Assembly (NCBI GenBank): GCA_049300475.1
Contig: JBAQJU010000335.1
Coordinates: 10,578 to 74,577 of the forward strand
Origin: Terriglobales bacterium
GTDB lineage: Bacteria > Acidobacteriota > Terriglobia > Terriglobales > Acidobacteriaceae
DNA length: 64,000 nucleotides
Direction of reading: 5' to 3'
In this document: in pieces, positions 3,248 through 40,955 of the stretch
Numbering within the stretch: the first letter of the stretch is position 1
How the letters are laid out: each line of letters begins with the position of its first letter
Position numbers and translations under genes: made by a program
Notes under the pieces: generated by a model
The model's database searches: none
Seen by the model: the letters and a program-made list of their open reading frames with translations, nothing else
What the model was told of the DNA's origin: nothing

Positions 3248-3346
3248 TCGTTCGAGTCAGTTGTCGACAGAAAACCGCTGAGCAAAATTACTATAGCTGT
3301 TTTTTGAGGAACGAGACAGTGCAAAATCGAGTGCGCGCCCCAAGAA

Positions 3347-3925
3347 TCATGGAACGAATCTTAATTTGTTATCGGACAAATCGGCCATGGAGTCCAAGGC
3401 GACGCGAATCCCAGATTGGGCGCAGGTTTCAGGGTCGACCACCATCCCACGGTCACCTGCAAGGTCACGAACTCGGACTTGCACGCGATTGCTGAAACGC
3501 ATTTCTTTTCGGGAGCGTTGCAGTTCGGCCCGCGGTAATTCGATTTGGGCGCGGACCATCTCCTTCTGAGCGCGGATCATCTCTTTTTGACCGAGAACCT
3601 GCTCCCGGATGCGATCACGAAACAGATCGGTTCGCTTGAGAGCCTCTTCCCGCATTCCCTCGGCCTGATCTTCCGCCACTTGTCGCGCATCGGCTAGTTG
3701 CCTTGCATCGGCGAGCAAATCGCCAGCCGGGCCCGCGGGGCGTCCGACGATCAGCCTCGCCATGGCGAAGGTTCTCTGTGCACCGGTGGCAAGCCGGCAA
3801 AACCTGGAACTGCCGCACGAAGCCAGGCGATGGAGGACAGGAAACGCCCCTCGCTGATACTCACTGGTGAATGCGAAGGCTAGAAGTCCGAGGGCGAACC
3901 AGTACGTAGCTTTTTGGCTATTCAT
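3347..3925 (-). CDS. Hypothetical membrane-anchored coiled-coil protein
   Basis: 192-aa ORF. The N-terminus is hydrophobic (YWFALGLLAFAFT). Internal repeats are charged (LADARQLADARQV; KEMIRAQKEMVRAQ). No family was recognised. Confidence 0.45.
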   Translation of the reverse strand: MNSQKATYWFALGLLAFAFTSEYQRGAFPVLHRLASCGSSRFCRLATGAQRTFAMARLIVGRPAGPAGDLLADARQLADARQVAEDQAEGMREEALKRTDLFRDRIREQVLGQKEMIRAQKEMVRAQIELPRAELQRSRKEMRFSNRVQVRVRDLAGDRGMVVDPETCAQSGIRVALDSMADLSDNKLRFVP

Positions 3926-4261
3926 GGAAACTCACCGTCAGAACATTGGACGAGGGGCGGGACAAAAGGTCAACAAGACAAAGTGAAGCGACCAGGCTCT
4001 GATGGCCTTGCCAGGGTACAAGAAAGTTGAGTGCAAAGTTGAATGCGAAGGACGCGGATGCGCCCGGGTGGTGACTTTGTGTCAATTACGAAACGCCTGC
4101 CATCCGAGACTTGGACGCAAAGAGCGCGAGTGGCGTAGAATTGCCGCGCTTTGTGTCCTACACGATTTACCGGATTTTTATGGGGACTGCGATGTAGTAA
4201 CGTGCGTGCCCGCGCTCAGAAGGTAGGCCCTTATTTAAACTAAAAAGGGGAAAGGCACACT

Positions 4262-5620
4262 ATGAAGCTCGTAAACCTCGCTTACTGTAGTGTAGTCGTA
4301 GTCGCGCTGATCCTGGCGACGGGCATTTGGAAACCAATGACAAATGCGCTCGCCAACAACAATAGTGCCGTTAGCACCGGAGTACCGCATTTCCGAGTCG
4401 ATCCGAATTGGCCAAAACCACTTCCGGCTCCAGTTGGCACGGATGGCATCGCACACACCTGGGTGCAGGGAGAAGTAGCGGGAACCTGCATCGATGCGGA
4501 CGATAACGTATTCACAGTAAACCGCGCGTGGGAGGTCGGAGTGAGCATTGCCGGCGTCACGCAAGGAAACGAATCGGGAATGATCGTCGGTCAGGACGCC
4601 TCCGCCTCGGCGATTCCTGCGCCGGTGATTCTGGAATTTAATTCGGCGGGCAAGGTCGTGAACGGCTTTGGCAACGCCGCGCTCACGCAGTCAGGTTCCA
4701 CGTATGGCGGCAGCGTATACATGCCTTACGGCTCCCATGGCTGCTTCGTGGATTACCAAGGCAACATCTGGACGGCCGGCAACGGTGACGGCATCGTTCA
4801 GAAATACGCGCACGATGGCGGCAACGGAGTCGCGCTGATGCAAATCGGGACGAAGGGCGTATGCGACGGACCGGCGAACAACAGCACGGTTGGCGGCACC
4901 GTCGTCTATTCCACTTGTGGCGAAGCTAACGACTTTAACAGCAGTCACACGCTGCTGAACGAGCCGGCGGACGTCACGGTCGATCCCAAGAACGATCCGG
5001 TCACCGGACAGCCGGGCGATATTTATATTGCCGACGGCTACGGAAATCACCGAATCGTGGTCTTCGACGCGAATGGCAACTACCTTCGCCAGTTCGGCAC
5101 GAAGTGCACGTCGACGCCGTGTCCGGGTGGCACATTCGGAGCGACGGGTGGCGGCCATCCGCACTGCGTGGTGCTGGGCAAGGACAATCTGGTGTACACC
5201 TGCGACCGTCCCAACAGCCGTATTGAAGTCTGGGACAAGATGGGCAATTACCTCCATTCGATCTCGGTGGGCGATGCGCCGGGCGCAACCGCGGGCGATC
5301 AGGCCGCGATCCTGAAGGCGGGCACACGGGCTTGTGACATGGACTTCTGGCCCAACATCGATTATCTGGGGGACAAGGGTCCGCAAAGCCAGAAATACAT
5401 CATCGACGTAGACTTGGGGAATGACAACGCCTGGGTTCTGGACAGGGAGAAAGGAGACATCCTGGGCGCGCTCGGCGCCTGCGGGATTGCTCCATGTCCA
5501 GGCCACAATGCCGGTCACTTTGGCTTCTCGCACACCGGCGCGGTGGACTCTCAAGGGAACGTGTACGTTGCGGAAACCATCACGGGCAGGCGCATCCAGA
5601 AATTCGTTCCAGTGAATTGA
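4262..5620 (+). CDS. Secreted NHL-repeat beta-propeller protein
   Basis: 452 aa with a signal-like N-terminus. NHL-type blades recur: IYIADGYGNHRIVVFDANGNYLRQFG, LVYTCDRPNSRIEVWDKMGNYL, VYVAETITGRRIQKF. An AGGGGA ribosome-binding site precedes the ATG. Confidence 0.7.
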   Translation: MKLVNLAYCSVVVVALILATGIWKPMTNALANNNSAVSTGVPHFRVDPNWPKPLPAPVGTDGIAHTWVQGEVAGTCIDADDNVFTVNRAWEVGVSIAGVTQGNESGMIVGQDASASAIPAPVILEFNSAGKVVNGFGNAALTQSGSTYGGSVYMPYGSHGCFVDYQGNIWTAGNGDGIVQKYAHDGGNGVALMQIGTKGVCDGPANNSTVGGTVVYSTCGEANDFNSSHTLLNEPADVTVDPKNDPVTGQPGDIYIADGYGNHRIVVFDANGNYLRQFGTKCTSTPCPGGTFGATGGGHPHCVVLGKDNLVYTCDRPNSRIEVWDKMGNYLHSISVGDAPGATAGDQAAILKAGTRACDMDFWPNIDYLGDKGPQSQKYIIDVDLGNDNAWVLDREKGDILGALGACGIAPCPGHNAGHFGFSHTGAVDSQGNVYVAETITGRRIQKFVPVN

Positions 5621-34030: not shown

Positions 34031-34636
34031 CTATGTTTTCGACCGCTTCCGCCGAAACATACCCGCCAATGCTACCAGCCCGGTCCCGAGCAATCCCAAG
34101 GTGCCTGGTTCAGGGGTTAAGTGGGTCAGCCCCAATTTGATGCTGCCCTTGTGATCTACCGTTTCCTGGTTCCAGTAGGTGTAGATGGTTTGGGTCGTGT
34201 TTCCCGACACGGTGCGGCCGGTGTACGCCTGTCCTGAGATTTCGCCGGTCAGTTGGTATTCGTGGAATTGCTTGTTCGATGCAACCAGTGTCCAGTCAAT
34301 CGGTCCGACAAAAGCGCCGTCGAAGATCGTCCCCTTGGGCTGACCATAGCTGCCAACGCCCGTCACGATAAAGCTCGATCCCACGTCGGAAAAGGTGCCG
34401 CCGGTCCAGACGCTGCCGCTGCTGAGAGCGCCAGTCGCGAAGTTGACCGATCCCAGGGAATGGTTTTTCGGCGCCTGAATGCCGTTGAAATTTATAAGCT
34501 CGGATCCCTTGGAGACAACTCCCGAAGCGGTGATCGTAACCGTGCCGAACTGGTTGATGAGGTTGATTCCGTCTGCGCTAGCCGTAATGGGCAATACCAG
34601 CGCCAACAGCGCCAAGCCGAACAATAGCCGTTTCAT
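34031..34636 (-). CDS. PEP-CTERM sorting-domain secreted protein
   Basis: Signal peptide MKRLLFGLALLALVLPITASA. The C-terminus is PEPGTLGLLGTGLVALAGMFRRKRSKT (PEP motif, TM helix, basic tail). GGAGGG precedes ATG 34636. Confidence 0.75.
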   Translation of the reverse strand: MKRLLFGLALLALVLPITASADGINLINQFGTVTITASGVVSKGSELINFNGIQAPKNHSLGSVNFATGALSSGSVWTGGTFSDVGSSFIVTGVGSYGQPKGTIFDGAFVGPIDWTLVASNKQFHEYQLTGEISGQAYTGRTVSGNTTQTIYTYWNQETVDHKGSIKLGLTHLTPEPGTLGLLGTGLVALAGMFRRKRSKT

Positions 34637-35108
34637 TATTCCCTCCACAGAAAGCGATCCTGGGGTGGCCGCAGGGGGATAGGGTCGCCACGGATCACGA
34701 AGGTTGAATCGTTACTTGCTGTCCCTTAGCAATAATTTGCCTGGGTATCTAGGAGCAAACAGTCCGGGGAGGACGTTGACATAGTCTTGCACTAAAGTAA
34801 TGGAATTGAAGTGACACTCATCACGGTCGTAGGTGACTATTTTGGGGAGAATTCCACACCACTTCGCGGTCCTCCATGTAGCATTCCGGTCGAATGAATG
34901 CGGCAGGGGCTGCCATGCTCAACGAGAAAACGGCGAAACCATTTGCTGTAATTCAAGTCTTGAAGATTGCCCGGCCTCCCGCAGGCTTCCAGATAACACC
35001 CGCAAGGCGAACGTCCGAAGCCGAAAAAGCAGAAGATCAGGGTCCAGAGCCTGCTTTACTAAAACCCATTCCTGCATTGACAATGGTAGTTCAACGCAAG
35101 GAGCAATC

Positions 35109-35309
35109 ATGCCTGCTACTGGAGAACTCATTCGTATGATGAACTACGTCGATGACATCGCCGCAATCCTGCGGCGCGTCAACGCCTCACTTCCCACCAT
35201 GACCGACGAAGAAAAAATCCGCCTCGCGGAATACATTCGCAAATCCGATCCCAGCCTGGATAGCGTTCTCAAAACGCTCGACAAGCATCTCGACAAGGTG
35301 ACGGAATAG
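35109..35309 (+). CDS. Small hypothetical protein (66 aa), translationally coupled to hbd
   Basis: AAGGAG lies 5 nt upstream of the ATG. The stop TAG overlaps the GTG start of the next gene by 1 nt. The product is MPATGELIRMMNYVDDIAAILRRVNASLPTMTDEEKIRLAEYIRKSDPSLDSVLKTLDKHLDKVTE. Confidence 0.45.
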   Translation: MPATGELIRMMNYVDDIAAILRRVNASLPTMTDEEKIRLAEYIRKSDPSLDSVLKTLDKHLDKVTE

Positions 35310-36214
35310 TGCCAGAGGTGCCAGGAACGATCAAGACCGTAGCCGTCATTGGCGCCGGCATCATGGGACGGGGTATCGCCCATGCGGCCGCCATCGGTGG
35401 CTACCGCACCATCCTTGAAGATCTGCTGCCGAATGCGCTGCGCAAGGCGGAAAGCGAAATTCGCGCCAACCTCGATAAAGCTGTCGAACTTGGCAAGGTG
35501 AATGCATCGGACGCGCGGGCCGCCCTCGCCCGGATCGAGTACGCAAGTTCGGTGGACGAAGCGGCGCGCCAGGCCGATCTGGTCATCGAGGCGGTGCCCG
35601 AGGAACTGGAATCGAAGATCGAGATTTTCACGCTCCTCGATAAGATCTGTCGACCTGCGACGATTCTTGCTTCGAATACCTCTTCGCTCAGCGTTACAGA
35701 GATTTCGAGCGTGACCTATCGCGCGAAAAAATGTGTGGGGATGCACTTCTTCAATCCCGTCCACAAAATGAAGCTGCTCGAAGTGGTGCGCGCGCTCGAG
35801 ACCGATGCTGAAACGCTCGCCGCCGCAGTCGAAGTCGGAAAGCGCATGGGCAAGGAAGTTGTCGTGGTCAAGGAAGCGCCAGGCTTCATCACCAGCCGCA
35901 TCAACGCCCTGATCGGCAACGAAGCGTTTTACATGCTGCAGGAAGGGATCGCCACTCCTGAAGATATCGACAAGGCGCTGAAGCTTGGCCTTAACCATCC
36001 CATGGGCCCGTTTGAGTTGGTGGATTTGGTTGGCCTCGACACGCGCTTGCACATTCTCGAATACCTCCACAAAAGCCTGGGGGAGAAATTTCGTCCCTGC
36101 CCGCTGCTTGCGCAGTACGTAAAGGCCGGAAGACTCGGGCGCAAGTCGGGTCGTGGAGTCTTCGAATATCCTGAGCAAGCCAAGCCAGAGCAAGCCAGGC
36201 AGCAGGCGACTTAG
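35309..36214 (+). CDS. hbd: 3-hydroxybutyryl-CoA dehydrogenase
   Basis: IKTVAVIGAGIMGRGIAHAAA is a Rossmann fold. The 3HCDH N- and C-domain pattern is present (NTSSLSVTEIS, GFITSRI, MGPFELVDLVGLD). Confidence 0.88.
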   Translation: MPEVPGTIKTVAVIGAGIMGRGIAHAAAIGGYRTILEDLLPNALRKAESEIRANLDKAVELGKVNASDARAALARIEYASSVDEAARQADLVIEAVPEELESKIEIFTLLDKICRPATILASNTSSLSVTEISSVTYRAKKCVGMHFFNPVHKMKLLEVVRALETDAETLAAAVEVGKRMGKEVVVVKEAPGFITSRINALIGNEAFYMLQEGIATPEDIDKALKLGLNHPMGPFELVDLVGLDTRLHILEYLHKSLGEKFRPCPLLAQYVKAGRLGRKSGRGVFEYPEQAKPEQARQQAT

Positions 36215-36351: not shown

Positions 36352-36807
36352 ATGAAAGCTTTCCTGGCCAGCCTTGCCGTCGTCGCACTGATATGTCCAT
36401 TGGCAGCCTACGCAGCTCTTGGCGGTGACGTTGCTTCCATCGAAGCCGACCGGGCCCAAATGAAGGGAAGTGTCCAACAACGCCAGACCTCGGCATACAC
36501 CGTGCATGAGATCAAGGGAAGCAGCGGCACAGTGGTCCGAGAATATGCCTCGCCCTCGGGCCAGGTTTTCGCGGTGGCTTGGCAAGGCCAGTTCGCCCCC
36601 GGCCTGCAGCAGCTTCTGGGCACGTATTTCGACCAGTATTCTGCCGCTGTGAAAACCAACAAAGCGACTTATGTCGGCCGCAGACCGCTCAATCTGCAGC
36701 TTCCCGGATTGGTCGTTCAGGTGAATGGTTACATGCGCGCCTATCACTTCCGGGCGTATCTTCCGCAACAGATTCCCGCTGGAGTGAAACCGGAGGAGTT
36801 GTGGTAA
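36352..36807 (+). CDS. Secreted DUF2844-like protein
   Basis: Signal peptide MKAFLASLAVVALICPLAAYA. YTVHEIKGSSGTVVREYASPSGQVFAVAWQGQFAPGLQQLLG resembles DUF2844 as I recall it, so an HMM check is needed. Confidence 0.6.
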   Translation: MKAFLASLAVVALICPLAAYAALGGDVASIEADRAQMKGSVQQRQTSAYTVHEIKGSSGTVVREYASPSGQVFAVAWQGQFAPGLQQLLGTYFDQYSAAVKTNKATYVGRRPLNLQLPGLVVQVNGYMRAYHFRAYLPQQIPAGVKPEELW

Positions 36808-38144
36808 CGACGACGCCAGGTGGATTAGCGTTACGCGGGTCAACGGGGCACGGGTCAACGGGGCAGGGGTCATCGGGGCAAAGATCGATTTTACGGCGAT
36901 CAACTTTGCGTGGATTTTTGAGTTTGGTTGTCGCAAGCGGACTCGGATTGCTCGCCGCATGTGGCGGAGGTGGAAGCAGCAGCAAGAGCACCACCCCACC
37001 TCCTTCCGGAAATAACGTGCAAGCGATCGAAGTCAATGGAGGGCCGGTCGCGGGGCAACTCTACGCTAATGCCGCCTTTACCAGCGTGACCGTGTGCGTT
37101 CCGGGCTCCACGACCTGTCAGACGGTGGATGGAATCCTGGTGGACACGGGTTCGGTCGGACTAAGGCTCCTCGGTTCCGCAATCCCTAATCTTGCTCTGC
37201 CCAAGCTCTCTGGGTCGGGCAGCACGAACTACTACAACTGCGTCAGCTTTGTGGATGGCTCCTACCTTTGGGGACCTGTTGCGCAAGCGGATGTGGAGAT
37301 GGCCGGAGAAAAGGCAAGCAGCGCCAGCATTCAGGTGATCGAGGATCCCACTGGCTTCATGGTGCCGACCGCTTGCTCGAATGGCGGCATGGACGAAGAT
37401 AACCTCCAGGCGCTCGGAGCCAATGGCATTGTCGGCGTGGGCGGATACCCTCTGGATTGTGGCCCTGCCTGCGTGAGCGACACTTCTCCGGACATCTACT
37501 TTACCTGCGAGCAAAGCGGCAATTGTCAGTCATCGACGATCGCGGTAGCAAAGCAGGTGGTCAATCCGATCGTCGATTTTACGACCGACAATAATGGCGT
37601 ACTCATCGAAATGCAGTCGGTGGATGGCGAGTCGGCGACGGCCACCGGGTCCATGATCTTCGGCATCGGCACCGAATCCAACAACGCGCTGGGTTCAGCC
37701 AATGTCTATCCAATCAATAACGATGGGTTCTTCACAACGACGTTTAATTCGCAGGCGTTGACCGAGAGCTTTATTGACAGCGGCTCGAACGGATATTTTT
37801 TCCCGGATGCGTCGATTACGCAATGCAGCCAGAACAGCGGCGTCTTTGGGTTCTACTGTCCGGCCAACACCGCGAACCTGTCGGCACAAAATGTTACGCA
37901 AAGCGGGTCGCAAAATACGTTGAGTTTCAGCGTCGACAATGCGGTAAATGATTTTAATAACTTCGGCAGCGACTCAGCATTCGCGAATCTTGCAGGACCG
38001 AACGGCACCACTAACTGCGGAACGGGGACGCCTTGCGGCTTCGATTGGGGCCTTCCGTTCTTCTACGGCCGCAACGTGTTCACTTCGATCTACGGACAAT
38101 CGGCTCCGAGCGGAACTCCCGCCGCACCCTGGTGGGCCTATTAA
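36801..38144 (+). CDS. DUF3443-like lipoprotein with pepsin-like twin D[TS]GS motifs
   Basis: The lipobox is LGLLAAC|GGGGSSS. DTGS is at 37143-37154 and DSGS at 37776-37787, 211 aa apart. The start is either GTG 36801 (GGAGG upstream, 7-nt overlap with the previous gene) or TTG 36906, which gives a classical MRGFLSLVVASGLGLLAAC signal. Confidence 0.7.
   Translation: MVTTTPGGLALRGSTGHGSTGQGSSGQRSILRRSTLRGFLSLVVASGLGLLAACGGGGSSSKSTTPPPSGNNVQAIEVNGGPVAGQLYANAAFTSVTVCVPGSTTCQTVDGILVDTGSVGLRLLGSAIPNLALPKLSGSGSTNYYNCVSFVDGSYLWGPVAQADVEMAGEKASSASIQVIEDPTGFMVPTACSNGGMDEDNLQALGANGIVGVGGYPLDCGPACVSDTSPDIYFTCEQSGNCQSSTIAVAKQVVNPIVDFTTDNNGVLIEMQSVDGESATATGSMIFGIGTESNNALGSANVYPINNDGFFTTTFNSQALTESFIDSGSNGYFFPDASITQCSQNSGVFGFYCPANTANLSAQNVTQSGSQNTLSFSVDNAVNDFNNFGSDSAFANLAGPNGTTNCGTGTPCGFDWGLPFFYGRNVFTSIYGQSAPSGTPAAPWWAY
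36837..36881. repeat. 3 x 15-bp tandem repeat
   Basis: GGGTCAACGGGGCAC GGGTCAACGGGGCAG GGGTCATCGGGGCAA. It encodes GSTGH/GSTGQ/GSSGQ if the gene starts at 36801. Otherwise it is intergenic. Confidence 0.85.
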
Positions 38145-38168: not shown

Positions 38169-39902
38169 GTGATGGGAGTCACCGCGACGGGAAGGCCCGC
38201 CGGACTAGGCTTACCTTGGTTAGCCAATCCCATGCTGGATCCGTCAGCCATCGAAGCTGGACTTCGCCACCTCGCGCCGGAACAGCTCCGCAATGCTCTC
38301 GGAAATTTCTTGCCCAAACATGGCACCGCGGCAGAGAAAATCGCTGCCATCGAAAGCGGGCTCCGCAGTCCCATGGGCCAAGCCTTGCGGGACGCAATGG
38401 CGAGGTGGATTGTTGACGAGATTGTCCCGGTGGAACGCCTGGTTCCCGAGGCCTACCTGAAGTGGCGTCCTCCGGTACGGGACGCCATGATGTTCGTGGT
38501 GGCCAGGCTCTCCGCGGCGCGCCTTGCGCCCAAGCTGCTTGAGCAAATCGAACTCCCCGAAAGCACGTCGCCTGAAGCACGCTTGCTGCGGCTGATCGCA
38601 AAAGTGCCGGGGCTGCAAAAACTGGGACAAGTCATCGCCCGAAACCAGAACCTGCGTCCCGCTCTGCGCCGTGCGTTGGGGCGCCTGGAAAATGGAATTC
38701 GCGACGTCGCACCCGCGGAGATAGGCGCCATCATCCGGCGGGCTCTGGGATCGCGCGTCGCGAAGTACCAGGTCAGGATCGCGCCGGCTATTCTCTCCGA
38801 GGCCAGCGTCAGCGCGGTCATGCGTTTCACATGGCACAACCCGGAAAGCGGCCGGCGTGAACGTGGCGTTTTCAAAGTTCTGAAGCCGCACATTCCGGAA
38901 TACTTTGCCGAGGACATGGATTACTTGCAGGGACTCGCTCAGTACTTCGGAGACCGGCACCACAGCTACGGATTTCCGGCGGACCTTCTACCCGATACTT
39001 TCAAGAAAGTCCGGCGCTTGCTTCGCCACGAGGTGAACTTTGCCCGGGAACAGAAGACGCTGATCGAAGCGGCGGCCCTCTATCAACACATCTCCGGTGT
39101 GCGCGTGCCGCGTTTGATTCCGCCGCTCTGTACCCCCAGCATCACAGCGCTCACAGAAGAGCGCGGGATCAAGGTAACGAGCGCAGCCGCCCGTCTTCCC
39201 GCCTCGGGGCGGACGAAAGTCGCGGAGCAAATTATCGAAGCGCTGGTTGCCATCCCGCTTTTTTCGGCCCATGAGAATGCGATTTTCCACGGCGATCCCC
39301 ACGCCGGCAATTTGCTCTATGACAACCGTACGGGCGAGTTGGTCATCCTGGATTGGGCGCTGCGCGAGCGCCTGACGCGCGAGCAGCGGCGCCACCTGGC
39401 GCTCCTGATCCTGATGGTGAGCCTGCGCGATCCGGTGGGCGCCAGCACCGAGATCCGGGCGCTCAGCCAGCATCAAATCCACAGCAACTCGCCGCGAGGT
39501 CACATGATTCGCGAGACCGTCGCAGCCTATCTCGATGAACTGCCCGTGACGAGTCTGCCCAGCGGCACGGACGCCATGCGCTTGCTGGAACGCATCGCGC
39601 TGAAGGACGTGAAGTTCCCCGGCCCGCTGATTATGCTGTCGAAGGTGATCTTTACGCTGGATGGGATTTTGCGCGACATTGGCGGCTCCAGCAAAGGGAT
39701 GGGTCTTACGATCGCACGCCACGTCGCCGAGGATTGGATCGGCAATCAAAGCGCATTCCGCTCGCCTCTTAAAATCCGGGACTGGGCCACGCTGCAATGC
39801 AGCGCATTACTGTGCTCGAGCCGCTGGGCGCTGCGCGCCGAACAGGCCATAGTCAATCGCCTGCTGCCCGCCCGATCACAGGCGTCCCAGGCCTCCGCGT
39901 GA
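38169..39902 (+). CDS. ABC1/UbiB-family atypical kinase
   Basis: 577 aa. GVFKVLKPHIPEYFAEDMDYL and IFHGDPHAGNLLYD are ABC1 kinase-like motifs. Confidence 0.8.
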   Translation: MMGVTATGRPAGLGLPWLANPMLDPSAIEAGLRHLAPEQLRNALGNFLPKHGTAAEKIAAIESGLRSPMGQALRDAMARWIVDEIVPVERLVPEAYLKWRPPVRDAMMFVVARLSAARLAPKLLEQIELPESTSPEARLLRLIAKVPGLQKLGQVIARNQNLRPALRRALGRLENGIRDVAPAEIGAIIRRALGSRVAKYQVRIAPAILSEASVSAVMRFTWHNPESGRRERGVFKVLKPHIPEYFAEDMDYLQGLAQYFGDRHHSYGFPADLLPDTFKKVRRLLRHEVNFAREQKTLIEAAALYQHISGVRVPRLIPPLCTPSITALTEERGIKVTSAAARLPASGRTKVAEQIIEALVAIPLFSAHENAIFHGDPHAGNLLYDNRTGELVILDWALRERLTREQRRHLALLILMVSLRDPVGASTEIRALSQHQIHSNSPRGHMIRETVAAYLDELPVTSLPSGTDAMRLLERIALKDVKFPGPLIMLSKVIFTLDGILRDIGGSSKGMGLTIARHVAEDWIGNQSAFRSPLKIRDWATLQCSALLCSSRWALRAEQAIVNRLLPARSQASQASA

Positions 39903-40034: not shown

Positions 40035-40955
40035 TCAGGCAGTTGCCGCAACCGCAGCCCGCTTTGCTCGAACCGAACGCTTCCCATGATGCTCAGTCTT
40101 GGCCGCGTGCCGGCCGTTCGTCGGCTTTGTGATAACGTCCATCAAAGCCCTCTGGGCATCCACGTAGCTTTTCACGCCTTCGCGAGTCAGTTCGGCCAGC
40201 GGGAGTAAGGGAAATGGCCGCAGGAGTTCCAGCGTCTTGCCCGCCGTTTTCACGTTGGCGTTCATCTGCTGTCCAGCCACGTCAACGAGTTTCTTCTGGG
40301 CCTCGATGAGCGAGTCTGTGGTCTGGCGTGCCACCACAGCCAACTCCGTCTTCTTCGTGGTCTTCTTGCCGCCCTCGGCATGTTTGGCGCCGGTCGCCTT
40401 GGCGGTCTCGTCGGCCACTACGTCCAGGAACTGCTTCTGCGCTTTCACGAACGTGTCCATACCCTCGCGGGCCAACTGCACGATGTGCTCAGGCTGGTAT
40501 GGCTTGCCGGACTTGGCAGCTTGCACCCAGGTGTGGGTCTGCTTTTCGGCAATCTTCAAGAACTCCTGTTGCATGTGGATGAAAGTCTCCACGCTGCGCC
40601 GCAGGAGATCGATGGCGGCAAGGCGCCGGGGGCAATCGCCCACCCGCTCTCTTACGCCGTTCAGGAGGATTTCGTTCTGCTGCTTGCCCAGTTCAAGAAG
40701 AATTTTTTGTCCTTCGATAAAGTTTGTCATGCCTTCCCCAGCGACTTCACTGAGAATGGCGGAGGGAGAATGATGAGGATCGGACAACTGCTCCCGGACA
40801 GCATGCATTACATTTGCATTCTGCCGCATCGCAAGGTCCAGCATGATCCTCTGCGTGGCAAAGAAAGTCTGGACGCCCTGTTGAGCCCAACCCGATAGAA
40901 TAGAGACAAAGGAAGATTCCCGAGGATGAGTCTCGGTCCTGTTGGCAACTGGCAT
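40035..40955 (-). CDS. Six-repeat amphipathic-helix protein, phasin-like by context
   Basis: 306 aa. Six ~33-aa repeats share the pattern G-[VM]-x-[TS]-[FY]-[IV]-x-x-Q-[KR]-x-[LF]-[LVM]-[DE]-[LV]. It is divergent from phaR. GGAGGT is the ribosome-binding site. Confidence 0.5.
   Translation of the reverse strand: MPVANRTETHPRESSFVSILSGWAQQGVQTFFATQRIMLDLAMRQNANVMHAVREQLSDPHHSPSAILSEVAGEGMTNFIEGQKILLELGKQQNEILLNGVRERVGDCPRRLAAIDLLRRSVETFIHMQQEFLKIAEKQTHTWVQAAKSGKPYQPEHIVQLAREGMDTFVKAQKQFLDVVADETAKATGAKHAEGGKKTTKKTELAVVARQTTDSLIEAQKKLVDVAGQQMNANVKTAGKTLELLRPFPLLPLAELTREGVKSYVDAQRALMDVITKPTNGRHAAKTEHHGKRSVRAKRAAVAATA

What the first reader, a model, noticed from the sequence alone, without database searches (positions are those of the whole stretch)
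36352..38144. Secreted DUF2844/DUF3443 pair: the lipoprotein shows a pepsin-like bilobal aspartic-protease signature
The DUF3443-like lipoprotein has two hydrophobic-hydrophobic-D-[TS]-G-S motifs 211 residues apart: ILVDTGSVGLRLL and SFIDSGSNGYFF. In pepsin the two catalytic Asp residues are about 183 residues apart.

The surrounding context also matches the A1 family:
- VTVCVPGSTTCQTVDGILVDTGS resembles x-I-G-T-P-x-Q-x-F-x-V-x-F-D-T-G-S.
- hhGhG psi-loop-like motifs are present (GIVGVGG, MIFGIGT).
- The C-terminal WGLPFFYGRNVFTSI resembles ILGDVFLRxxYxVFD.

Bacterial pepsin homologs are rare. Here the candidate is lipid-anchored and overlaps by 7 nt with (or sits just after) a small secreted DUF2844-like protein. 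That partner could act as an inhibitor, prosegment surrogate or chaperone. An ABC1 kinase gene follows 24 nt downstream.
Basis: partly seen in the sequence, partly recalled or inferred. Interest (0 to 1): 0.65.

Follow-up and report, generated by a model that had tools for sequence, protein, structure and literature searches.

The report
Lipid-anchored bacterial pepsin-like protease with partner
A soil acidobacterium carries a membrane-tethered protein of an unannotated family (DUF3443) that is predicted to fold like stomach pepsin and keeps both catalytic aspartates, which points to a large, overlooked bacterial group of pepsin-type proteases, each encoded next to a small secreted partner protein.

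Summary

**The genes**
- Window 36352-36807 encodes a Sec-secreted DUF2844 protein.
- Window 36801 or 36906 to 38144 encodes a DUF3443 lipoprotein.

**The motifs**
- LVDTGS (D80) and FIDSGS (D291) lie 211 residues apart.
- They are near-invariant in 150 representatives that are under 50% identical to one another.

**Fold evidence**
- An AlphaFold2 model built on 115 diverse homologues has pLDDT 92.7 and pTM 0.89.
- In a Foldseek search of the PDB, all 50 top matches are family-A1 pepsins (E down to 1.4e-11, TM up to 0.62).
- A collinear profile alignment puts D80 on pepsin D32, F115 on the flap residue Y75, G177 on G122 and D291 on D215.

**Limits on family membership**
- Sequence methods do not reach pepsin: there are no Pfam Asp/TAXi hits and no PDB hits, and hhalign gives E 0.006.
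- I therefore read this as a new clan-AA family with pepsin architecture, not a member of A1.
- It has no propeptide.

**The partner gene**
- DUF2844 sits directly upstream in 78 of 78 informative genomes, usually with overlapping stop and start codons.
- A natural DUF2844-linker-DUF3443 fusion exists.
- This supports, but does not prove, a prosegment-like inhibitor or chaperone role.

No literature on either family was found. Protease activity is untested.

The parts
36352..36807 (+). DUF2844 gene (151 aa). It has a Sec signal peptide, MKAFLASLAVVALICPLAAYA, followed by a conserved mature N-terminus, ALGGD.
   Evidence: ORF. Pfam PF11005, E 8.6e-40. L23, G24, D33, E64, W77 and R129 are invariant in 21 homologues. 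The gene lies directly upstream of DUF3443 in 78 of 80 genome loci; the other 2 lack upstream DNA.
36836..36880 (+). A 15-nt tandem repeat (CGGGTCAACGGGGCA, 3 copies). It lies either in the spacer between the genes or in a long signal-peptide n-region.
   Evidence: Tandem Repeats Finder. L001 has four copies.
36801..38144 (+). DUF3443 lipoprotein gene at its maximal extent. The start is either GTG 36801 (7-nt overlap with the DUF2844 stop) or TTG 36906 (412 aa).
   Evidence: ORF. Pfam PF11925, E 1.5e-120. Comparison of start codons across relatives.
36906..36962 (+). Lipoprotein signal peptide MRGFLSLVVASGLGLLAA plus the lipobox Cys19 (codon 36960-36962). A Gly/Ser/Pro-rich tether follows, up to residue 37.
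   Evidence: C19 and G20 are invariant in alignment A1. Cys is present in 133 of 150 representatives. The tether has low pLDDT.
37137..37154 (+). N-lobe catalytic motif L-V-D80-T-G-S.
   Evidence: Position. Conservation: D 145/146, T 146/146, G 141, S 145. Aligns with pepsin D32-T-G-S. The strand E71-80 ends at D80 in the model.
37248..37262 (+). Predicted flap tip F115-V-D-G-S. F115 sits at the position of pepsin Tyr75.
   Evidence: hhalign column mapping. The beta-hairpin loop at 115-119 lies between strands E108-114 and E120-132. Position 115 is F in 136 and Y in 7 of 150 representatives.
37428..37436 (+). N-lobe psi-loop motif I175-V176-G177 (hydrophobic-hydrophobic-Gly).
   Evidence: G177 is present in 149/149. 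Aligns with pepsin I120-L121-G122.
37647..37673 (+). G248-S-M-I-F-G-I-G-T256, the counterpart of pepsin's GSVVLLGGI at the start of the C-terminal half.
   Evidence: hhalign. G248 is present in 150/150 and G253 in 149/150.
37770..37787 (+). C-lobe catalytic motif F-I-D291-S-G-S.
   Evidence: Position. Conservation: D 147/149, S/T292 148, G 149, S/T294 144. Aligns with pepsin D215-T-G-T. The strand E283-290 ends just before D291.
38040..38072 (+). C-terminal motif F379-D-W-G-L-P-F-F-Y-G-R389. It probably contains the C-lobe psi-loop Gly (G382).
   Evidence: G382 is present in 149/149 and F385 in 145. Aligns with pepsin WILGDVFIRQYY in a profile-versus-sequence comparison.

Best explanation
**The enzyme.**
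- The downstream gene encodes an extracytoplasmic, lipid-anchored aspartic endopeptidase with the two-lobed pepsin architecture.
- After lipoprotein processing at Cys19, a Gly/Ser/Pro tether of about 18 residues holds a roughly 375-residue catalytic domain.
- In that domain D80 (N-lobe, DTGS) and D291 (C-lobe, DSGS) would jointly activate a water molecule, as in pepsin.
- S83 and S294 sit at the positions of pepsin's Ser35 and Thr218. A beta-hairpin flap tipped by F115 sits over the cleft. Ten conserved cysteines probably form disulfides.
- There is no N-terminal prosegment.

**The partner.** The upstream, translationally coupled gene encodes a small Sec-secreted protein, DUF2844. It most likely acts in trans as the missing prosegment: a stoichiometric folding helper and/or inhibitor that keeps the enzyme silent until it reaches its destination.

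**Shown here:** gene structure, family assignments, motif conservation, predicted fold, gene pairing, and the existence of a fusion.

**Inferred, not shown:**
- catalytic activity and an acid pH optimum. The acid optimum is plausible because relatives come from peat and bog Acidobacteriota and from Burkholderia-group bacteria;
- the role of DUF2844.

My confidence in 'pepsin-fold active aspartic peptidase' is about 0.75. My confidence in the prosegment-like role of DUF2844 is about 0.35.
For: **Family and motifs.** Pfam assigns DUF3443 and DUF2844. The two hh-D-[TS]-G-S motifs are 211 residues apart and unique within the window. They are near-invariant across 150 representatives of 2,769 clusters at 50% identity.

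**Fold.** The AlphaFold2 model has pLDDT 92.7 and pTM 0.89. All top 50 Foldseek PDB matches are A1 pepsins: rhizopuspepsin, penicillopepsin, endothiapepsin, BACE1, renin and porcine pepsin. E-values run from 1.4e-11, and TM normalised to the target reaches 0.62. An earlier poor model already gave only A1 hits.

**Residue mapping.** A collinear 199-column hhalign alignment puts D80 on D32, F115 on Y75, IVG177 on ILG122, GSMIFGIGT on GSVVLLGGI, and D291 on D215. Lobe by lobe, N-to-N scores best (E 9e-4), while cross-lobe comparisons give 0.11-0.15.

**Anchor.** The lipobox Cys is conserved.

**Partner.**
- DUF2844 is adjacent in 78/78 informative loci and in B. thailandensis.
- A start codon lies within -12 to +15 nt of the DUF2844 stop in 68/79 loci, mostly as a 4-nt overlap.
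- A natural secreted fusion, DUF2844-linker-DUF3443 without a lipobox, occurs on at least 6 contigs, from at least three separate samples.
Against: - No sequence method links the family to pepsin at accepted thresholds. phmmer and profile searches of the PDB find nothing. No Pfam Asp/TAXi hit appears in 115 members even at E<=10. hhalign probability is only 6%.
- The fold evidence rests on a prediction, not an experiment. TM scores of 0.5-0.6 and rmsd of 6-7 A indicate a distant relative with large insertions.
- Phe replaces the near-universal flap Tyr.
- Four close relatives have DLGS rather than DSGS in the second motif.
- Model coordinates could not be inspected, so the Asp-Asp distance was not measured.
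- For the partner role:
  - DUF2844 has no detectable similarity to pepsinogen prosegments or to any solved structure.
  - It shows only a faint PepSY_2 hint (4/21 members, best E 0.061).
  - A divergent DUF3443 subfamily lacks DUF2844 altogether.
Confidence: 0.7

Rival explanations
1. The protein has the pepsin fold but is a non-catalytic binding protein. It would resemble the A1-family members that lost protease activity (xylanase inhibitor TAXI-I, pregnancy-associated glycoproteins). DUF2844 would be its ligand or co-receptor.
For: Family A1 is known to contain non-peptidase homologues (PMC2761423). The flap residue is Phe rather than Tyr. A few members have DLGS in the second motif.
Against: The known non-peptidase homologues have lost the catalytic aspartates. 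Here both Asp residues, the following T/S-G-S/T, and the psi-loop glycines are kept in 94-100% of 150 divergent representatives and in a 33%-identical subfamily. That pattern points to selection on catalysis.
Confidence: 0.1
2. The lipoprotein is an active pepsin-like protease, but DUF2844 is not an inhibitor or prosegment. It would instead be a dedicated substrate or precursor that the protease processes, or an adaptor that delivers substrates or helps export or localise the enzyme.
For: The mature N-terminus of DUF2844 (A-L-G-G-D...S-V-x-A-D) is unusually conserved right after the signal-peptide cleavage site. That could mark a processing or recognition site. Pairing, coupling and fusion fit any tight functional partnership. 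DUF2844 shows no similarity to known prosegments or inhibitors.
Against: In the fusion, DUF2844 sits at the N-terminus of the protease domain, where zymogen prosegments sit. The enzyme has no prosegment of its own. A faint PepSY_2 signal points towards a propeptide or inhibitor domain. None of these is decisive.
Confidence: 0.3
3. The two-lobed architecture arose independently, by duplication and fusion of a bacterial single-lobe retropepsin-like gene. The resemblance to pepsin would then be parallel evolution within clan AA, not descent from the bilobed A1 ancestor.
For: The only Pfam aspartic-protease models touched by family members are single-lobe ones: Asp_protease_2 in 5/115 (best E 0.0016) and gag-asp_proteas in 1. 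There are no hits to the A1 models. Sequence similarity to pepsin is marginal.
Against: The hhalign alignment with pepsin is collinear through both lobes. It includes the inter-lobe GSxxxxGGI motif, which has no counterpart in single-lobe enzymes. N-lobe to N-lobe similarity (E 9e-4) exceeds cross-lobe similarity (0.11-0.15). Foldseek aligns 400 or more columns to whole A1 chains.
Confidence: 0.2
4. The motif resemblance is coincidental and the protein has an unrelated fold.
For: D-[TS]-G is a short motif. Sequence searches against the PDB find nothing.
Against: The high-confidence model matches only A1 structures. The motif is unique within the window and conserved family-wide.
Confidence: 0.02

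Closest known systems
Eukaryotic pepsin family (MEROPS A1; Pfam PF00026 Asp): pepsin, rhizopuspepsin, endothiapepsin, BACE1
   Same: - Predicted bilobal fold (Foldseek E 1e-11).
- Two hh-D-T/S-G-S/T motifs, one per lobe, with similar spacings: Asp to psi-loop Gly is 97 residues versus 90; the second Asp to the C-lobe Gly is 91 versus 87.
- An inter-lobe GSxxxxGGx motif and a beta-hairpin flap.
- Disulfide-rich and extracytoplasmic.
   Different: - No significant sequence similarity.
- Phe instead of Tyr at the flap position.
- An extra stretch of about 30 residues, containing four conserved cysteines (185-207), between the N-lobe psi-loop Gly (G177) and the inter-lobe GSxxxxGxG motif.
- No propeptide or zymogen.
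- An N-terminal lipid anchor.
- Bacterial.
- A dedicated partner gene.
Bacterial pepsin homologues (shewasin A/D and relatives; Rawlings & Bateman 2009, PMC2761423; PMC4814920)
   Same: Bacterial, bilobed, two catalytic Asp residues, no prosegment.
   Different: - Those proteins are recognisable A1 members by sequence.
- They occur in only a few species.
- They lack signal peptides and are described as intracellular.
- DUF3443 is not recognisable as A1 by sequence, is exported and lipidated, comprises thousands of sequence clusters, and has a conserved partner gene.
Single-lobe bacterial retropepsin-like proteases (Rickettsia APRc, PMC4140852; Pseudomonas secreted retropepsin-like enzymes, PMC12239564)
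   Same: Clan AA catalytic motif, bacterial, and in some cases membrane-associated or secreted. Five DUF3443 members give weak Pfam Asp_protease_2 hits.
   Different: Those enzymes have one lobe and must dimerise. DUF3443 carries both lobes in one chain, with non-identical DTGS and DSGS motifs.
Protease prosegments and proteinaceous aspartic-protease inhibitors (pepsinogen propeptide; PepSY propeptide domains; Ascaris PI-3 in PDB 1f34 — the PI-3 comparison is from memory only)
   Same: DUF2844 is small and co-exported, is encoded immediately upstream with translational coupling, and in one lineage is fused N-terminally to the protease. This is the position and logic of a prosegment.
   Different: There is no detectable similarity to the pepsinogen prosegment or to any solved structure. 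The PepSY_2 signal is below significance. No binding or inhibition has been shown.

Membership tests
Pfam PF11925 (DUF3443) | Score above the gathering threshold against the family HMM | tested here: met
   403 bits against a cut-off of 25, E 1.5e-120, covering profile positions 3-367 of 367.
Pfam PF11005 (DUF2844) | Score above the gathering threshold against the family HMM | tested here: met
   136 bits against a cut-off of 22.4, E 8.6e-40.
Peptidase family A1 (pepsin) | Statistically significant sequence similarity to pepsin or the A1 profile | tested here: not met
   No PDB hit by phmmer or by two profiles at E<=10. No PF00026, TAXi_N or TAXi_C hit in 115 members at E<=10. hhalign against a 20-sequence A1 profile gives E 0.0058 and probability 6%.
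Peptidase family A1 (pepsin) | Bilobed fold with one catalytic Asp per lobe | tested here: met
   On a predicted structure only. pLDDT 92.7. All top 50 Foldseek PDB hits are A1 chains aligned over 400 or more columns.
Peptidase family A1 (pepsin) | [quoted passage not shown] | tested here: met
   LVDTGS and FIDSGS, conserved in 94-100% of 150 representatives.
Peptidase family A1 (pepsin) | A hydrophobic-hydrophobic-Gly psi-loop motif in each lobe | tested here: inconclusive
   N-lobe: I175-V176-G177 aligns with pepsin ILG122, and the Gly is invariant. C-lobe: D380-W381-G382 has an invariant Gly, but the register against pepsin ILG302 is uncertain.
Peptidase family A1 (pepsin) | Flap tyrosine (Tyr75) | tested here: not met
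   The aligned position is F115: Phe in 136 and Tyr in only 7 of 150 representatives. The alignment itself has low confidence.
Peptidase family A1 (pepsin) | Synthesis as a zymogen with an N-terminal prosegment | tested here: not met
   The first strand of the domain starts at residue 38, 19 residues after the lipidated Cys. Only a low-complexity tether lies between them.
Peptidase family A1 (pepsin) | Pepstatin-sensitive endopeptidase activity | not testable with these tools
   Requires recombinant protein.
Peptidase clan AA | Acid-protease double-psi-type lobe with the D-T/S-G catalytic loop | tested here: met
   Predicted fold and conserved motifs. Weak Asp_protease_2 hits in 5 members.
Bacterial lipoprotein | Signal peptide ending in a lipobox [LVI][ASTVI][GAS]C | tested here: met
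   MRGFLSLVVASGLGLLAA-C19. C19 and G20 are invariant in 35 relatives. Cys is present in 133 of 150 representatives. A lipobox-like pattern is found in 220 of 269 family proteins.
Protease plus dedicated prosegment or inhibitor pair | Conserved adjacency and co-translation of the two genes | tested here: met
   78/78 informative loci. A start codon lies within -12 to +15 nt of the stop in 68/79 loci. A fusion protein is found on at least 6 contigs. A divergent subfamily lacks the partner.
Protease plus dedicated prosegment or inhibitor pair | Physical binding to the protease and inhibition of it | not testable with these tools
No complex was modelled.

The most novel reading that the evidence does not exclude
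DUF3443 is an ancient, widespread bacterial lineage of bilobed pepsin-type proteases. Its prosegment function is supplied in trans by a separate gene (DUF2844), and in some lineages by fusion. If so, the lobe duplication that created pepsin architecture took place in bacteria. Eukaryotic A1 zymogens could then descend from, or be sisters to, such a two-gene system, with the fusion P0121 as a living intermediate of how a prosegment becomes attached.
Probability: 0.2. Interest if true: 0.85.

Novelty: new variant of a known kind. Interest (0 to 1): 0.62.

Why it matters
**Background.** Pepsin-type (A1) proteases were long thought to be eukaryotic. The 2009 report of bacterial homologues found them in only seven species, all apparently intracellular. 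It left open whether the two-lobed architecture predates eukaryotes or reached bacteria by horizontal transfer (PMC2761423).

**What this family adds.**
- It has at least 2,769 clusters at 50% identity, spread over Acidobacteriota, Burkholderiales, Gammaproteobacteria and Desulfomonilia.
- It shows the same architecture and catalytic apparatus as pepsin.
- It would greatly enlarge the bacterial side of clan AA, and it makes the origin question testable with lobe-wise structural phylogenies.

**Functional annotation.**
- It gives two DUF families a testable function.
- It points to an acid-adapted, surface- or periplasm-tethered protease in peat and soil Acidobacteria, organisms whose protein turnover in acidic soils is poorly understood.
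- It offers a candidate new type of trans-acting partner for an aspartic protease.

Tried and rejected
1. **Direct sequence links to solved structures.** phmmer and two profile searches of DUF3443 against the PDB found nothing relevant.
2. **First AlphaFold2 run.** With 35 close homologues it gave a poor model (pLDDT 60, C-lobe unresolved). It was replaced by a run with 115 diverse sequences.
3. **Profile against a single pepsin sequence.** It aligned only the C-terminal motif (probability 1.8%), so a pepsin-family profile was built from database sequences.
4. **DUF2844 similarity searches.**
   - Against the PDB and Pfam at relaxed thresholds, only chance-level hits and a faint PepSY_2 signal appeared.
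   - Against the pepsinogen prosegment, pepsin and DUF3443 by hhalign, there was no similarity.
5. **Neighbouring genes as part of the system.** The ABC1 kinase and 3-hydroxyacyl-CoA dehydrogenase neighbours are syntenic only in the three closest relatives, so this was rejected.
6. **Large gaps between the two genes in some loci.** These turned out to be Ig-like N-terminal extensions of the lipoprotein, not extra genes.
7. **Literature.** Searches for DUF3443, DUF2844, PF11925, PF11005, the InterPro ids IPR021847 and IPR021267 (quoted from memory, not verified), and for pepsin-like proteases in Acidobacteria found nothing pertinent. The supplement of PMC2761423 holds no alignment.
8. **Promoter and terminator scan of the locus.** Nothing above background.
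Full report
**What is in the window**

The + strand carries two co-directional ORFs.
- ORF 36352-36807 (151 aa) matches Pfam DUF2844 (E 8.6e-40).
- The ORF ending at 38144 matches DUF3443 over the whole profile (E 1.5e-120).
- The next gene, 24 nt downstream (38169-39902), is an ABC1-type kinase. The upstream gene (35309-36214) is a 3-hydroxyacyl-CoA dehydrogenase.
- Those two neighbours are syntenic only in the three closest relatives, so they are not part of the system.
- The closest genomes are uncultured Acidobacteriaceae/Terriglobales from bogs and soils.

**Checking the observation**

- The DUF3443 product contains ILVDTGSVGLRLL and SFIDSGSNGYFF.
- Among 126 open frames of at least 150 aa in all six frames of the window, this is the only one with any [hydrophobic]2-D-[TS]-G-[ST] motif, and it has two.
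- The start codon is ambiguous.
  - GTG 36801 overlaps the DUF2844 stop by 7 nt and is conserved at that position in four relatives.
  - In the closest relative it is out of frame, and only the TTG equivalent to 36906 remains.
  - Either way the mature protein starts at the lipobox cysteine (LLAA-C19, numbered from 36906).
- That cysteine is invariant in 35 relatives and present in 133 of 150 divergent representatives.
- A 15-nt x3 tandem repeat occupies 36836-36880, between the two genes.

**Family size and conservation**

- An exhaustive profile search finds 2,769 clusters at 50% identity with E<=0.001.
- The table gives conservation in 150 representatives that are mutually under 50% identical.

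| Position | Conservation |
|---|---|
| D80 | 145/146 |
| T81 | 146/146 |
| G82 | 141 |
| S83 | 145 |
| D291 | 147/149 |
| S/T292 | 148 |
| G293 | 149 |
| S/T294 | 144 |
| G177 (in I-L/V-G) | 149/149 |
| G253 | 149/150 |
| G382 | 149/149 |
| Position 115 | Phe in 136, Tyr in 7 |

- Ten cysteines are also conserved, which suggests disulfides and an oxidising, extracytoplasmic location.
- A 33%-identical subfamily on Burkholderia vietnamiensis and Caballeronia plasmids keeps DTGS plus DTGT.

**Fold**

- A first AlphaFold2 model from 35 close homologues was poor (pLDDT 60). Even so, it retrieved only pepsin-family structures.
- With 115 diverse homologues the model reached mean pLDDT 92.7 and pTM 0.89. 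It is almost all beta, with strands ending exactly at D80 (E71-80) and just before D291 (E283-290).
- Foldseek against 350,542 PDB chains returned 172 hits at E<=0.001.
- All top 50 are family-A1 aspartic proteinases: rhizopuspepsin 1uh7/2apr, penicillopepsin 3app, endothiapepsin, BACE1, renin, Candida Saps, plasmepsin and porcine and human pepsin.
- They align over 400-460 columns, with E 1.4e-11 to 2.6e-9 and TM 0.41-0.62 normalised to the target.

**Residue-level correspondence**

- I confirmed that my recalled porcine pepsin sequence is identical to PDB 1f34_A.
- I then retrieved database A1 sequences with a seed alignment and built a 20-sequence A1 profile.
- hhalign of the DUF3443 profile against it gives one collinear 199-column alignment (E 0.0058, probability 6%). 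The mapping is below.

| DUF3443 | Pepsin |
|---|---|
| D80-T-G-S | D32-T-G-S |
| F115-V-D-G-S | Y75-G-T-G-S (flap) |
| G-I-V-G177 | G-I-L-G122 |
| GSMIFGIGT | GSVVLLG-GI |
| D291-S-G-S | D215-T-G-T |

- Lobe-wise hhalign E-values were:

| Comparison | E-value |
|---|---|
| DUF3443 N-lobe vs pepsin N-lobe | 9e-4 |
| DUF3443 C-lobe vs pepsin C-lobe | 0.066 |
| Cross-lobe, DUF3443 vs pepsin | 0.11-0.15 |
| DUF3443 N-lobe vs its own C-lobe | 0.012 |

- The sequence signal is therefore weak. It is nonetheless collinear, lobe-specific and consistent with the fold match.

**Why this is not simply a member of A1**

- No accepted-threshold sequence similarity exists.
  - phmmer and profile searches of the PDB found nothing.
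  - No Pfam Asp, TAXi_N or TAXi_C hit appears in any of 115 members even at E<=10.
  - Only sub-threshold Asp_protease_2 hits appear, in five members.
- The flap aromatic residue is Phe, not Tyr.
- There is no prosegment.
- An extra stretch of about 30 residues with four conserved cysteines lies between G177 and the GSMIFGIGT motif.
- The protein is lipidated.
- The best description is a new clan-AA family with pepsin architecture.

**The partner gene**

- DUF2844 lies immediately upstream in 78 of 80 genome loci. The other two lack upstream DNA.
- These loci include Betaproteobacteria, Gammaproteobacteria and Desulfomonilia bins. The annotated B. thailandensis plasmid also has the pair.
- In 68 of 79 loci a start codon of the lipoprotein lies within -12 to +15 nt of the DUF2844 stop, most often as a 4-nt overlap. 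This indicates translational coupling.
- Apparent larger gaps are Ig-like N-terminal extensions of the lipoprotein, not extra genes.
- DUF2844 has a Sec signal peptide and an unusually conserved mature N-terminus (A-L-G-G-D...). Its invariant residues include D33, E64, W77 and R129.
- It has no detectable relative in the PDB or in Pfam beyond its own family, apart from a faint PepSY_2 signal (4/21 members, best E 0.061). It shows no similarity to the pepsinogen prosegment.
- One lineage encodes a natural fusion, P0121 (588 aa): signal peptide, DUF2844, a Ser/Ala/Pro linker, then the DUF3443 domain, with no lipobox.
  - The identical protein is called on at least six contigs, from at least three separate samples.
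  - Its 90% cluster has nine members.
  - No separate DUF2844 gene lies upstream.
  - This places DUF2844 exactly where a zymogen prosegment would sit.
- Against an obligatory role: the divergent Burkholderia/Caballeronia subfamily lacks DUF2844 and instead follows a TAXI-family TRAP solute-binding gene.

**Mechanism proposed**

- Shown: a lipoprotein precursor with a tether and a pepsin-fold domain that bears a conserved Asp dyad.
- Inferred:
  - general acid-base hydrolysis of peptide bonds by D80 and D291;
  - an extracytoplasmic location (periplasmic face or cell surface);
  - activity suited to the acidic habitats from which most relatives come, judging by record titles (peat, palsa, bog);
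  - DUF2844 as a stoichiometric, co-exported prosegment-like inhibitor or folding helper.
- I put about 0.75 on the first claim (active pepsin-fold peptidase) and about 0.35 on the DUF2844 role.

**Novelty**

- Full-text searches found no paper that mentions DUF3443, DUF2844 or their Pfam accessions, and none on pepsin-like proteases in Acidobacteria.
- The 2025 Pfam copy and RefSeq still label both genes as DUFs.
- NCBIfam has no model for either.
- Known bacterial pepsin homologues are few, lack signal peptides, and are recognisable as A1 by sequence (PMC2761423; PMC4814920).
- I could not check whether Pfam's clan assignment or structure-based superfamily databases already link PF11925 to acid proteases. 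That tempers the novelty claim.

Noticed in passing
window 36836-36880: A 15-nt tandem repeat (CGGGTCAACGGGGCA, 3 copies) lies between the DUF2844 stop and the lipoprotein signal peptide. The closest relative, L001, has 4 copies. If translation starts at GTG 36801 it encodes GSTGH/GSTGQ/GSSGQ in a long signal-peptide n-region.
   Followed up: partly
L084 3001-4767 (also L085, L086); protein P0121: A natural fusion protein: Sec signal peptide, DUF2844, a Ser/Ala/Pro linker, then the DUF3443 domain, with no lipobox. It is found on at least 6 contigs, from at least three separate samples, and no separate DUF2844 gene lies upstream.
   Followed up: yes
L082 3534-4610 and L083 3477-4547 (Burkholderia vietnamiensis and Caballeronia plasmids): A divergent DUF3443 subfamily (about 33% identity; motifs DTGS and DTGT; lipobox LVSC) has no DUF2844 gene nearby. 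In both records it follows a TAXI-family TRAP solute-binding protein gene.
   Followed up: partly
L021, L028, L050, L061, L079 (about 3250-5200); also proteins P0089, P0107, P0115: Some DUF3443 lipoproteins carry 150-250 extra residues of Thr/Ser-rich Ig-like repeats between the lipobox and the protease domain (precomputed Pfam hits include PF22073, PF15780 and PF07610). One representative, P0217, is 1,793 aa long.
   Followed up: partly
L028 1617-2723, 2872-3306, 4001-5200: Two DUF3443 genes flank a single DUF2844 gene in one Acidobacteriaceae genome.
   Followed up: no
alignment A1: P0092, P0098, P0102, P0119: Four close relatives have D-L-G-S instead of D-S-G-S in the second catalytic motif. 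This changes the residue at the position of pepsin Thr216. The effect on activity is unknown.
   Followed up: no
window 34031-34648 (-): A 205-aa secreted protein with a C-terminal PEP-CTERM sorting motif (Pfam E 2.6e-5) lies 1.7 kb upstream on the opposite strand.
   Followed up: no
window 40035-40955 (-): A 306-aa helical, Lys/Gln-rich ORF gives only a weak, sub-threshold match to PHA_synth_III_E (E 0.0055). It may be a phasin-like protein.
   Followed up: no
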